Origin: Octopus vulgaris
Lineage: Eukaryota
Length of the DNA stretch: 64,000 bases
Assembly: GCA_951406725.2 (NCBI GenBank)
Contig: OX597814.1
Location: 145,390,001 to 145,454,000, forward strand
Direction of reading: 5' to 3'
Below the pieces are notes generated by a model, which was given only the letters and a program-made list of their open reading frames with translations, was not told the DNA's origin and did no database searches. The position numbers were made by a program, and so were the translations under genes. Below, one piece after another: positions 4,341 to 57,929 of this stretch (the first letter of the stretch is position 1; each line of letters begins with the position of its first letter).

Positions 4341-4744
4341 AGGTACAGGTATGGCTGTATGGTAAGAAGTTTGCTTCCCAACCACATGGTTCCGGGTTCA
4401 GTCCCACTGCGTGGCACCTTGGGCAAGTGTCTTCTACTATAGCCTCGGACCGACCTAAGCCTTGTGAGTGGATTTGGTAGACGGAACCTGAAAGAAGCGT
4501 ATGTATATATACGTGTATGTGTCGGTGTTTCTCCCCCTAGCATCACTTGACAACACATGTTGGTGTCTTTACGTCACTGTAACTTAGCGGTTGGGCAAAA
4601 GAAACCGATAGAATAAGTACTAAGCTTACAAAGAATAAGTCCTGGAGTCGATTTGTCCGACTAAAGGCGGTATTCCACCATCGCTGCAGTCAAATGACTG
4701 GTACAACTCAAAGAATGAAAGAAGAAAAGAAGAAAAGAATAAAA

Positions 4745-5485: not shown

Positions 5486-5521
<36 letters not shown>

Positions 5522-5544
5522 TATATATATATATATATATATAT

Positions 5545-5864
5545 AAGTTTAAATATTTGTTGTGCAAGATTTTTTATGTGAAGTCGTGTGTTGAAACAGA
5601 TATTGTTATATTTCGGAATGGTCATATTGCCAGTTTAGCCAATAAATACAAAATGGCTGACGGTTAGTAAGGAGAGACACAAATAAGTGAGAAGAAAACA
5701 AAGGACCACTGATGAGGTCACAGGAGTGTGACGAAAGAACTTTGGCCGAAATAAGATTAAGATTAATGTAAAAAATAAATATCACTGAAGCAAAATAACA
5801 CCAAATATATAGTGCGTGTGTTTTTATTGGCTAAACTGGCAATATGACCATTCCGAAATATAAC

Positions 5865-5865
<1 letters not shown>
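5545..5865 (+). mobile_element. Fold-back element (Penelope pseudo-LTR or retrozyme-like) between (TA)n tracts
   Basis: Perfect 43-bp inverted repeat 5604-5646 / 5823-5865 enclosing an HHR motif; (TA)n on both sides. Confidence 0.65.
5703..5747 (+). ncRNA. Type I minimal hammerhead ribozyme
   Basis: GGACCA-CTGATGA-G-GTCACA ggag TGTGAC-GAAA-GAAC-TT-TGGCC: intact core boxes, perfect 6-bp stem II, short stem III, stem I with one mismatch. Confidence 0.75.
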
Positions 5866-5895
<30 letters not shown>

Positions 5896-27227: not shown

Positions 27228-27672
27228 GGATATTTTAGGTTTGAACGGCAGTTTTTTAACATAATTTCTAGGTAACTAAAAAATTTTAAACTTCGTATAC
27301 TGGTAGAATGTGTTTATAAAACATCTTTTTCTCTTGGCTTTGTTAAGAAAATTCTATAGTTTGTAAGATATTTGTTGTTTTTTTCTTCAATTTCTGCAAT
27401 TTCAACCAATCAATGACGTGTATTGAGGTTATAAGCATTATGTGCCGTATGAATATGGCCCTCGCTTAAGAAACAGATTGGGTTTATTTACATTTGTGAA
27501 GAAAAAAAGATACACTTCCCTCCACCCCTAACCCTAACCCTAAGCCTAACCCTAACTAACCCTAACCCTAAAATAGATTGAAATGCAATAGATCGATACT
27601 AGGGTCATAATTATGGGTGACAATTTCATATGACACCGCTAGAAAAAACTGCCGTTCAAACCGAAAAGATCC
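27228..27672. mobile_element. Non-autonomous DNA transposon (MITE) with internal (CCCTAA)n
   Basis: 30-bp TIRs GGATATTTTAGGTTTGAACGGCAGTTTTTT / AAAAAACTGCCGTTCAAACCGAAAAGATCC; possible TSD ATAGTT/ACAGTT. Confidence 0.85.
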
Positions 27673-43061: not shown

Positions 43062-43597
43062 CAGGGTGGACCAAAATGATCTGACACATTCTCAAAATAA
43101 GAAATAATGAAAAGAAAAATTTTATTTTCTGAATGTACATATAATGCCATTTTATTTCATTAAGTTTTAAAAATTAAATCAGCTAAATGCTTCCCATCAT
43201 TGTCAACACACTGTTGGAGATGTTCATGAAAGTTATCGATATCTCTATGGATCATTTCTTCTGGAATGGTGAAATGTGATTTCTTCTTGTGGGGATATTT
43301 ATAATAAAAGAATCCAGTCATCGCCCTCGATCTATTGATGAATTAAAACGTGCAATTTATGTAGAAATAGCAACCATTCTAGAAGAAGTGATCCATAGAG
43401 TTATCGATAACTTTCATGAACGTCTCCATCAGTGTGTTGACAATGATGGGAAGCATTTAGCTGATTTAATTTTTAAAACTTAATGAAATAAAATGGCATT
43501 ATATGTACATTCAGAAATTAAAAAATTTCATTTCATTATTTCTTATTTTGCGCTTTTATTAAGCCTCCGAATGTGTCAGATCATTTTGGTCCACCTG
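43062..43597. mobile_element. Tc1/mariner-superfamily non-autonomous element made of two inverted 3' ends
   Basis: TIR CAGGGTGGACCAAAATGATCTGACAC; 43062-43270 is the inverse of 43372-43597; transposase tail CDFFLWGYL..PRSIDELKRAI..NFHERLHQCVDNDGKHL. Confidence 0.9.
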
Positions 43598-48900: not shown

Positions 48901-48905
<5 letters not shown>

Positions 48906-49026
48906 TAATAAATAAAATATATGCATACATACATACATATATGTACGTACCTACATCTACATGTATATATACATGCATAGGTACGTACATATATGTATGT
49001 ATGCATATATTTTATTTATTACACTA
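48901..49026. repeat. Fold-back of the 3' end of the 7317-7590 family
   Basis: Arms 48901-48952 / 48979-49026; identical third arm at 50057-50108. Confidence 0.85.
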
Positions 49027-50002: not shown

Positions 50003-50061
<59 letters not shown>

Positions 50062-50230
50062 TAATAAATAAAATATATGCATACATACATACATATATGT
50101 ACGTACCTTTCACTCTCTCTCTCTCTCACTGACTCACTCATACTAGATTTTAGATACTAACTCTTTTTATATATATCCATTTTTGTTTTTTGTTATTGTG
50201 TTTCTCTCCTGCTTCTTACGGCTAGTGATA

Positions 50231-55724: not shown

Positions 55725-56325
55725 ATATTCGTCTCTACTCTAGGTACAAGGCCTGAAAATTTTGGGGAGGGGGCCAATCGATAGGATCAACCTCAGGATT
55801 AAAGGCAAAGTCGACTTCGGTGGAATTTGAACTCAGAACGTAGCGGCAGACGAAATACCACAAGGGGCTAAACACAGAGAAGACAAACAAGGAGAGACAA
55901 ACGGATTAAGACGATTATATCGACCCCAGTGCGTAACTGGTACTTATTTAATCGACCCCGAAAGGATGAAAAGCAAAGTCGACCTCGGCGGAATTTGAAC
56001 TCAGAACGTAACGGCTGACGAAATACTGCAAAGCATTTCGCCCTGCGTGCTAACGTCTTTGCCAGCTCGCCGCCTTTTTTTTTAACGACTCTTATTTCTT
56101 TATTGCCCACAAGGGGCTAAACATAGAGGGGACAAACAAGGACAAACAAAGAGATTAAGTCGATTACATCGACCCCAGTGTGTAACTGGTATTTATTTAA
56201 TCGATTCCGAAAGGATGAAAGGCTTAGTCGATCTCGGCGGAATTTGAACTCAGAACGTACCGATAGACGCAATACCGCTAAGCATCTCGCCTGGCGTGCT
56301 AACGATTCTGCCAGCTCGCCACCTT
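55725..56325 (-). mobile_element. Tandem array of three SINE family D units
   Basis: Three GGAATTTGAACTCAGAACGTA modules. Confidence 0.9.
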
Positions 56326-57363: not shown

Positions 57364-57411
<48 letters not shown>

Positions 57412-57479
57412 TACAAAAAAATTAACAGAATGAGATAAAAATCCAAGGTTGTGAAAGATTTCAGAACAATCATAAATAG

Positions 57480-57527
57480 GTCTTACAGCTGTTTCCGGGA
57501 TATTTTATATACCTCTTCATCAGAGAC
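57480..57527 (-). ncRNA. Type I minimal hammerhead ribozyme
   Basis: GTCT-CTGATGA-AGAGGTATATAAAATATCCCG-GAAA-CAGCTG-TA-AGAC: perfect 4-bp stem I, palindromic stem III ACAGCUGU, GUA cleavage triplet. Confidence 0.8.
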
Positions 57528-57665
57528 GGTGTGAGAAAATGGTTAAGCAATAGTTATTCTAGATAAAATTAGTTATCTAGAATAACTAGTGCACTTCCTT
57601 ATATATATGTGTTCTAGAATAGTTATCTATAATAACTATTGCTATAATAACCATTTTCTCGCACC

Positions 57666-57712
57666 GTTTCTGATGAAGGGATATTTAAATATCTTGGAAA
57701 CAGATGTAAGAC
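57666..57712 (+). ncRNA. Type I minimal hammerhead ribozyme
   Basis: GTTT-CTGATGA-AGGGATATT ta AATATCTT-G-GAAA-CAGATG-TA-AGAC: long stem II, GUA triplet. Confidence 0.8.
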
Positions 57713-57929
57713 CTGCTATTTATAAATGTTCTGAAATCTCTCATTCTGTTAATATTTTTATATATACACATGCTGATATATGACATACGTTCGACTCCTC
57801 ATTCGCATAATCAACGAACCTGGAGCTTAATATAGTCTATCCATAGCACTTACTCAGCATTATCTGACAACTTTGGGTCTTCTTGAAACCATTAACTCTC
57901 ATAACCTCAATATATATATATATATATAT

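What the first reader, a model, noticed from the sequence alone, without database searches (positions are those of the whole stretch)
5545..5865. Hammerhead ribozyme caged between perfect 43-bp inverted repeats
Seen: HHR at 5703-5747 (CUGAUGA, perfect GUCACA/UGUGAC stem II, GAAA, CUU triplet, stem I ACCA/UGGC) inside a 43-bp inverted repeat with no mismatches (5604-5646 / 5823-5865), bounded by (TA)n on both sides. It shares no obvious sequence with the 57.5-kb element, so it appears to be a second family with a similar design. Inference: the perfect arms imply a recent fold-back during reverse transcription, and the RNA would display the ribozyme in the loop of a stable stem.
Basis: partly seen in the sequence, partly recalled or inferred. 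Interest (0 to 1): 0.75.

Follow-up and report, generated by a model that had tools for sequence, protein, structure and literature searches.

The report
Penelope retrotransposon stub with reverted hammerhead
This is the short end piece of a common jumping gene of the Penelope type, pasted in twice back to back in a layout already known for such elements; its self-cutting RNA motif looks textbook in this copy, likely through a one-off back-mutation, while most copies of the family carry a changed core letter, which suggests the family spreads without needing to cut itself.

Summary
The 43/43 inverted repeat and the hammerhead-shaped motif are real, but this is not a separate 'caged ribozyme' family. 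Window 5546-5865 is a 5'-truncated, inverted insertion of the end repeat (pLTR) of an autonomous 4.6-kb Penelope-like element with a 1,310-aa RT/GIY-YIG frame; it differs from an intact copy at 3 of ~320 bases. The layout (inverted copy, one-sided tail, TA target) is textbook, and this scan found it before on other DNA of this genome. In 36 of 36 inverted pairs one arm ends at offset ~25 and the other at ~80 from the start codon, which fits priming from two start sites better than simple fold-back. The same junction arose repeatedly (12 copies, scattered on the tree). The canonical CUGAUGA is a minority: 277 exact copies against 3,200 with CUGAUGC; all intact elements examined have C9, so the window's A is likely a private reversion. 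Stem III is not palindromic. Cleavage and transcription are untested. Ordinary insertion; the degenerate-core active lineage is the one point of interest.

The parts
5520..5545 (.). (TA)n target microsatellite, left side
5546..5646 (-). Inverted short copy of the element end: offsets -21 to +79 from the A of the start codon (0); start codon at 5625 on this strand
   Evidence: 1 difference from intact copy L064 (5546)
5546..5600 (-). 'Tail' (offsets 25-79): first codons of the element's ORF, present on one arm only
5604..5646 (.). Left arm of the 43-bp inverted repeat
5644..5646 (.). Inversion junction, AAA shared by both pieces (microhomology); same junction in 12 genomic copies
5644..5865 (+). 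Sense copy of the pLTR, offsets -200 to +21; begins in the family's 5'-end hot spot
5703..5747 (+). Minimal type I hammerhead motif: core 5709-5715, extra G 5716, stem II 5717-5732, GAAA 5733-5736, CUU 5740-5742, predicted cut 5742/5743
5715..5715 (+). Core position 9: A here, C in the copy's own subfamily (likely private back-mutation)
5823..5865 (.). Right arm of the inverted repeat; holds the ORF start codon at 5844
5866..5890 (.). (TA)n target microsatellite, right side

Best explanation
The stretch is a short, 5'-truncated and inverted insertion of the end repeat of an autonomous Penelope-like retrotransposon, likely made when the element's enzyme nicked both strands of a TA repeat and primed two cDNAs from two fixed start points on its RNA, which were then joined by a 3-base microhomology. 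Shown: identity with intact elements, the one-sided tail, the two end points, the recurrent junction, the core-letter counts. Inferred: the cDNA primed at offset ~80 stopped at -21, the one primed at ~25 ran to -200, where 5' ends pile up, probably because the template RNA starts there (pLTR promoter). The inverted repeat is the overlap of the two cDNAs, a by-product. The hammerhead is a passenger: the expanding lineage changed core A9 to C, and this copy likely mutated back. With a non-palindromic stem III and no partner ribozyme nearby it is predicted to cleave poorly or not at all. Confidence: identity 0.95; twin priming rather than fold-back 0.7; transcription start at about -200 0.5; reversion 0.7.
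For: Three differences from intact copy L064 over 5545-5865. 7 of 8 fetched long loci hold two tandem repeats 4,546-4,598 bases apart around a 1,310-1,312-codon frame (the eighth was fetched on the wrong side). RT, linker and GIY-YIG motifs in P0001. 3' ends of 111 pieces fall in two groups, 45 at exactly 25 and 45 at exactly 80; 36 of 36 outward-facing pairs among 80 loci have one of each; the tail is on the shorter arm in 19 of 30 unequal pairs. Arms share the parent's variants: 109 shared, 77 arm-specific of which 55 private, in 29 pairs. 12-bp target duplications in L016 and L017. 5' ends at -212 to -179 in 19 of 30 loci with an end between -300 and -143; no 34-base window reached this in 20,000 simulations; AT content there is not higher. 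Exact junction in 12 copies needing 5 changes on the tree, one group in 0 of 200 bootstrap trees. C9 in 15 of 15 cores of the 7 intact loci and 36 of 36 cores in 29 ORF-bearing loci; A9 in 11 of 12 old-subfamily copies picked by an unrelated marker; 23 of 25 old-lineage loci have stops or broken frames. Published: inverted truncated copy, one-sided tail, (TA)n bias (PMC8557442); both strands cut and extended, two start sites define the tail, hammerhead mutants do not affect insertion (PMC11167929).
Against: No biochemical or RNA evidence here. 11 of 30 unequal pairs have the tail on the long arm and 6 of 36 are near-symmetric, one far from -200 (L132, -755/-755): these fit fold-back as well. 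Two or three of the 36 pairs (L143, L169, L186) are complex and may not be single events. The TATA-like TATAAG at -232 reads TATACG in the old subfamily, and the Drosophila Penelope promoter is TATA-less (PMC2377424). 6 of 100 pieces start within -106 to -95, near the predicted cut at -101, more than in the bin just upstream (2 in 36 bases), so some cleavage is not excluded. Intact loci were found with a protein from a C9 copy, which biases towards C9. Pfam gave no hit for P0001; homologues gave only sub-threshold RVT_1 and GIY-YIG hits. The effect of A9C on activity was not found in the papers searched.
Confidence: 0.85

Rival explanations
1. Same element, but the inversion came from fold-back: one strand (first cDNA or an antisense RNA) self-primed where its -200 region can pair with its -25 region, was copied into a hairpin, and was later trimmed by the endonuclease to leave the tail on one side.
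For: Self-priming was proposed from palindromic junctions in PMC3846280, and endonuclease resolution of the tail in PMC8557442. Near-symmetric junctions in 6 of 36 pairs. The parent RNA has a 12-13-bp complementarity between -207..-195 and -33..-21 (duplex -9.7 kcal/mol). 11 variants private to one locus are shared by both arms.
Against: A target-primed cDNA that starts at offset 25 cannot template sequence out to 80, so the window and 19 of 30 unequal pairs need an extra trimming step or an antisense template. All 7 arms ending at -18 to -28 carry the tail and are joined to partners at many positions, not only -200. The complementarity is not in the minimum-energy fold of the parent.
Confidence: 0.25
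2. A non-autonomous family of its own (SINE/MITE-like or retrozyme) whose fixed 43-bp stem cages an active ribozyme and which is copied as a unit.
For: 37 near-full-length look-alikes among 40 scored candidates; 29 of the 30 closest have the tail on the short arm; folding puts stem II at probability 0.91-0.99 inside the stem against 0.27-0.29 in the parent context.
Against: Junctions differ among the look-alikes; only 12 exact junctions against 4,641 exact matches to a neighbouring 27-mer; those copies track the autonomous lineage step by step and one is identical to intact elements; no tandem units; 10 of the 12 lack the canonical core (9 with C9, 1 deleted).
Confidence: 0.04
3. The A at 5715 is not a germ-line back-mutation but an assembly error, or a patch copied in from an old A9 copy by gene conversion.
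For: Only 2 of 8 A9+CUU copies are young (99% to intact); T (12) and G (1) occur at the same place, as expected for random change. Both private changes of this copy are C-to-A at CpG (5546, 5715).
Against: Flanking old-subfamily marks 13 bases upstream and 26 downstream are absent, so a conversion tract would be short. A second young copy (L189) has the same change.
Confidence: 0.3
4. A DNA transposon (MITE with 43-bp terminal repeats and TA target duplication) that captured a ribozyme.
For: Perfect inverted repeat and TA flanks.
Against: The repeat is not terminal (55-nt tail beyond it), arm length varies from tens to thousands of bases, 12-bp duplications occur, and the arms are the start of an RT frame.
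Confidence: 0.01

Closest known systems
Endonuclease-positive Penelope-like elements with inverted 5'-truncated pLTR and one-sided tail (PMC8557442 Fig. 2 legend; Adineta Pen2a, PMC3846280)
   Same: Partial tandems, inverted truncated copy, tail on one side made of the first codons, pLTR of about 200-230 bases that includes the start codon, (TA)n targets, 9-12-bp duplications, asparagine-rich insert in the frame.
   Different: Tail is 55 nt rather than 30-40; this copy has lost all but 22-80 bases of the frame.
Neptune (or Nematis) clade PLEs
   Same: C-terminal GIY-YIG, CX4CxxC linker (CTDNYCTVC at 1183), microsatellite bias.
   Different: No tree with reference elements was built; DKG reads DKS.
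Poseidon_Ac of Anolis (PMC11167929)
   Same: Two internal start points bracketing the tail; hammerhead in the pLTR near the start codon.
   Different: Hammerhead lies 135-101 bases before the start codon instead of overlapping it; here the evidence is genomic only.
Minimal type I hammerheads of metazoan PLEs (PMC4209133; consensus CUGANGAH-G..C-GAAAN-palindrome-NUH in its supplement)
   Same: Long stem II with G10.1-C11.1, extra base before stem II, short stem I, almost no stem III.
   Different: Extra base is G (consensus H), loop 3 is not palindromic, and 92% of exact family copies have C at position 9.
Animal non-LTR retrozymes (10.64898/2026.07.22.740005)
   Same: Short non-coding hammerhead unit derived from a pLTR.
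   Different: No tandem units; not a self-propagating family.

Membership tests
EN+ Penelope-like element (parent family) | Single ORF with RT followed by GIY-YIG endonuclease | tested here: met
   1,310-aa frame with SMDVVSLYPS, YSRYVDD, VVY..YVGET, CCHH-type residues (motif names recalled). Pfam no hit on P0001; weak RVT_1 and GIY-YIG hits on 2 of 4 homologues; 99% match labelled RT-domain protein.
EN+ Penelope-like element (parent family) | Partial tandems forming pLTRs | tested here: met
   7 of 8 long loci, period 4,546-4,598
EN+ Penelope-like element (parent family) | Inverted 5'-truncated copy and one-sided tail | tested here: met
   36 of 36 pairs; window itself
EN+ Penelope-like element (parent family) | Short target-site duplication, AT-rich target | tested here: met
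   12 bp in L016 and L017; in most of the 30 copies, the window included, (TA)n hides it
Neptune clade | CX2-5CxxC linker between RT and EN | tested here: met
   CTDNYCTVC at 1183, cysteines kept in 11 aligned homologues
Neptune clade | Placement in the RT tree with reference Neptune versus Nematis elements | not tested
   No named reference elements were at hand
Minimal PLE hammerhead | Core CUGANGA and GAAA | tested here: inconclusive
   Met in the window copy and the old subfamily; not met in 3,200 of 3,477 exact copies
Minimal PLE hammerhead | Palindromic stem III/loop 3 for dimer formation | tested here: not met
   AGAACU; self-duplex 0.0 kcal/mol against -6.4 for the palindromic version
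Minimal PLE hammerhead | Covariation in stems I and II | tested here: inconclusive
   None seen; family too young and search patterns fixed part of the stems
Minimal PLE hammerhead | Self-cleavage | not testable with these tools
   Indirect only: 6 of 100 pieces start near the predicted cut
Non-LTR retrozyme | Tandem units each with a hammerhead | tested here: not met
   Single motif in the window; no such tandem among the loci mapped
MITE / DNA transposon | Fixed terminal inverted repeats and fixed TA duplication | tested here: not met
   Variable arms, tail beyond the repeat, 12-bp duplications

The most novel reading that the evidence does not exclude
An autonomous Penelope-like lineage lost its ribozyme activity (core A9 to C) and then out-spread its A9 ancestor more than tenfold, in several related species; each of its inverted insertions is written from both start sites of one RNA, one per target strand, and the short stubs are run-off copies ending at the transcript's 5' end. 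The window copy would be a natural revertant, giving an A9/C9 pair that differs by one base for testing whether PLE hammerheads do anything.
Probability: 0.35. Interest if true: 0.55.

Novelty: new member of a known kind. Interest (0 to 1): 0.3.

Why it matters
The insertion itself is ordinary. Two family-level results bear on open questions named in the literature. First, whether PLE hammerheads are needed or merely ride along (PMC8557442 raises this; PMC11167929 found them dispensable in vitro): here an intact, recently spreading lineage carries a non-consensus core, with ancestral, derived and revertant forms ready for a side-by-side assay. Second, how PLE inversions form: the strict one-short-end, one-tailed-end rule and the 5'-end hot spot give specific predictions for an in vitro system.

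Tried and rejected
Rfam scan: no match. Pfam on the ORF: none. PDB sequence search: one chance-level hit. RNA runs: no RNA holder listed on record; only contigs of guessed RNA runs, so starts, ends, circles and expression could not be judged. Lünse et al. 2017 on small PLE hammerheads was not held; I saw only its reference entry and a review's summary, and it may describe position-9 variants. Searches for A9C data found nothing useful (passages); CUGAUGC/CTGATGC did not occur in the one searchable supplement of PMC4209133, the other file could not be searched; hammerhead+penelope+cephalopod gave 2 listed papers. Supplements of PMC8557442 and PMC3088659 (Fig. S7, inactive variants) were not seen. 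Idea that C9 pairs with G12 and blocks it: predicted probability only 0.08, not supported. Idea that the two arms often come from different parents: 10 of 77 arm-specific differences were recurrent, 4 of them in one doubtful pair and 3 at an alignment end; 2-3 discordant marks among the 30 closest copies; rare at most. Predicted helix between -182..-175 and +81..+88: contigs of two relatives change the 3' side and old copies show no compensating change; dropped. The shuffle control was not comparable with the real hit and was replaced. One search returned nothing (no coordinates in headers) and was redone; one search stopped at an error after its first part and was finished.

Full report
Observation. 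The arms 5604-5646 and 5823-5865 match at 43 of 43 places. The motif at 5703-5747 has the parts of a minimal type I hammerhead: CUGAUGA (5709-5715), an extra G, a 6-bp stem II with a GGAG loop, GAAA, a two-pair stem III (A-U, G-C around AA) and CUU at 5740-5742. The descriptor hit once in the window and in 2 of 200 locally shuffled windows. Rfam gave nothing at gathering scores. The unit sits between (TA)n tracts and has no similarity to the 57.5-kb element.

What it belongs to. A search of the window's genome (2.8 Gb, G000) scored 40 of 1,393 candidates and gave 37 near-full-length places, the window included. The copies show that the element extends left of the repeat by a 55-nt piece (5546-5600). 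Two hits lay as a wide inverted pair around a reverse-transcriptase and GIY-YIG frame (L031). A protein search listed 95 rows, 8 with open frames of 1,310 codons or more. Of those 8 places, 7 as fetched hold two tandem repeats 4,546-4,598 bases apart around the full frame; the eighth was fetched on the wrong side. The 1,310-aa protein P0001 has RT motifs (759, 889, 929), a CTDNYCTVC linker (1183), a GIY-YIG-type end (1198-1298) and an asparagine-rich stretch (33% N over 246-505) (motif names are recalled). Pfam gave no hit for it; 2 of 4 homologues scanned gave sub-threshold RVT_1 or GIY-YIG hits; the closest database protein (99%) is labelled Octopus vulgaris, RT-domain-containing. The window differs from intact copy L064 at three bases (5546, 5683, 5715). 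Numbering from the A of the start codon (0 = window 5844), the window is an inverted piece +79 to -21 joined through a shared AAA to a sense piece -200 to +21. The 'arms' are the overlap of the two pieces and contain the start codon; the unpaired piece is the PLE 'tail'.

How such insertions are built. I mapped 80 loci taken in genome order from the C9 pattern list. The 3' ends of 111 pieces fall in two groups: 54 at offsets 18-29 (45 at exactly 25) and 57 at 56-80 (45 at exactly 80). All 36 outward-facing pairs have one end of each kind; two or three of these loci are complex. The tail is on the shorter arm in 19, on the longer in 11, and 6 pairs are near-symmetric. In 29 pairs with 100 or more overlapping bases (14,675 positions), 109 variants are shared by both arms and 77 are arm-specific, 55 of them private: both arms come from one parent lineage. 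Two copies outside microsatellites have 12-bp target duplications. Contigs of four runs from related organisms also break off at offsets 25 and 80 into TA runs. This matches the published picture: an inverted truncated copy, a tail on one side and (TA)n bias (PMC8557442, passages; PMC3846280, passages), and a purified PLE protein that cuts and extends both strands and starts at two internal sites that bracket the tail (PMC11167929, parts 1-2 of 4). A target-primed cDNA that starts at 25 cannot fold back and copy bases out to 80, so the window's geometry needs two primed cDNAs, or else an extra trimming step or antisense template (the self-priming model of PMC3846280). I favour twin priming (inferred, 0.7).

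Why this size recurs. 5' ends pile up at -212 to -179: 26 of 49 pieces ending between -300 and -95 among the first 100 places of a pattern downstream of the ribozyme, and 19 of 30 independent loci, a count that no 34-base window reached in 20,000 simulations; the stretch is not more AT-rich than its neighbours. All 7 short arms ending at -18 to -28 carry the tail. The window combines both hot spots. A TATAAG lies at -232, about 30 bases before the pile-up, followed by GCATGCGC, but the old subfamily reads TATACG there and the Drosophila promoter is TATA-less (PMC2377424, passages); PLE transcripts are known to start in the upstream pLTR (PMC6765202, section 11 part 2). So 'run-off at the transcript's 5' end' is an inference (0.5). 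The window's exact junction occurs 12 times in the genome against 4,641 matches for a neighbouring 27-mer. On a tree of 114 rows the 11 scorable junction copies need 5 changes, at least 4 forced by well-supported branches, and never form one group in 200 bootstrap trees; one is identical to the intact elements (short alignment, weak support elsewhere). The junction therefore arises again and again; it is not a family of its own. Perfect arms are common: 15 of the 30 closest copies have identical arms over 37 bases.

The hammerhead. Among the 29 closest other copies, 28 have C and 1 has G at core position 9. Genome-wide exact counts are 277 for A and 3,200 for C. With the young CUU triplet there are 1,320 C copies and 8 A, 12 T, 1 G (slightly shorter pattern); only 2 of the 8 A copies, the window and L189, are 99% like the intact element. 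A9 is the older state: A9/CUC copies are on average 4.7% from their majority (n=22), C9/CUC 3.6% (n=55), C9/CUU 1.5% (n=62); 11 of 12 old copies picked by an upstream marker have A9; relatives of an old ORF piece are at most 89% alike, 17 of their 28 scored cores have A9, and 23 of 25 have stops or broken frames in the part held. All 15 cores in the 7 intact loci and all 36 in 29 ORF-bearing loci are C9/CUU (these were found with a C9 copy's protein, a bias). In contigs of three related organisms C also dominates (A in 16%, 13% and 7% of summed depth, which is no copy number), and a fourth shows one contig with A. The published consensus for PLE minimal hammerheads is CUGANGAH with a palindromic loop 3 (PMC4209133, parts 1-2 of 4 and one supplement); this family has G as the extra base and a non-palindromic AGAACU, with no predicted self-duplex. 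Core changes are generally assumed to disable hammerheads, though some are tolerated (PMC3088659, section 8 and passages; PMC9901934, passages); I found no measurement for A9C. 94 of 100 pieces read through the predicted cut at -101; 6 start within -106 to -95 (two share one flank), where a GGCC near-palindrome could also cause joins. Cleavage does not set the main 5' boundary, but some cleavage is not excluded.

Would the copy make an RNA? Folding 5546-5870 gives -104 kcal/mol with stem II at probability 0.91-0.99 and stem I about 0.45, against 0.27-0.29 for stem II in the parent context, so the stem would shelter the motif if the plus strand were read through. The copy lacks the putative upstream promoter. 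The run search gave only contigs, with RNA status guessed, so expression, ends and circles remain open.

Comparison and verdict. It is a piece of an EN+ Penelope-like element, probably Neptune-type (linker met, tree not done). It is not a retrozyme (no tandem; 10.64898/2026.07.22.740005, part 1 of 5) and not a MITE. A recent repeat annotation of Octopus vulgaris lists recently active Penelope-like families and does not use the word hammerhead in its main text (PMC13282606, passages). Earlier notes of this scan describe the same layout in other families of this genome, and one describes another family that spread after changing catalytic letters; none matched this sequence. The insertion is ordinary (interest 0.3). 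The family-level points, a spreading lineage with a non-consensus core and a strict two-end rule, are modest additions that make known open questions testable.

Noticed in passing
window 57410-57760: Head-to-head pair of another hammerhead-bearing repeat end (cores starting at 57670 on + and 57523 on -), with palindromic ACAGCTGT stem III in one arm, next to (TA)n; a different family with the same PLE-type layout.
   Followed up: partly
window 43065-43595: Element with long (about 180-bp) terminal inverted repeats and a short core, MITE-like.
   Followed up: no
window 27238-27662: Element with 20-bp or longer terminal inverted repeats and an internal (CCCTAA)n tract at 27526-27571.
   Followed up: no
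window 48901-49026 and 50057-50108: 126-bp palindrome beside (TA)n with a partial second copy 1.1 kb away.
   Followed up: no
window 55858-56325: Tandem dimer of a 249-bp interspersed repeat, 85% alike.
   Followed up: no
window 5546 and 5715: Both private changes of this copy are C-to-A at a CpG; damage, error or chance.
   Followed up: partly
L064:2572-6501 (P0001 residues 246-505): Asparagine-rich insert (33% N) ahead of the RT, absent from 10 aligned homologues, like the N-rich inserts described in rotifer Penelopes (PMC3846280).
   Followed up: partly
protein P0102: A piece of this element's protein (98% over 21% of the query) is part of an NCBI model named dynein regulatory complex subunit 6-like isoform X6: exonised insertion or mis-annotation.
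   Followed up: no
protein P0078: A 33%-identical homologue is filed under a bacterial metagenome-assembled genome; likely eukaryotic contamination.
   Followed up: no
L064:2572-2634: Many contigs in four organisms match only from the start codon to offset 62 with other sequence on both sides: probably another abundant repeat that shares the tail region.
   Followed up: no
L248/L249, L109/L110, L177/L178: Pairs of near-identical copies 19-200 kb apart (L248/L249 share their flank), pointing to local segmental duplications.
   Followed up: no
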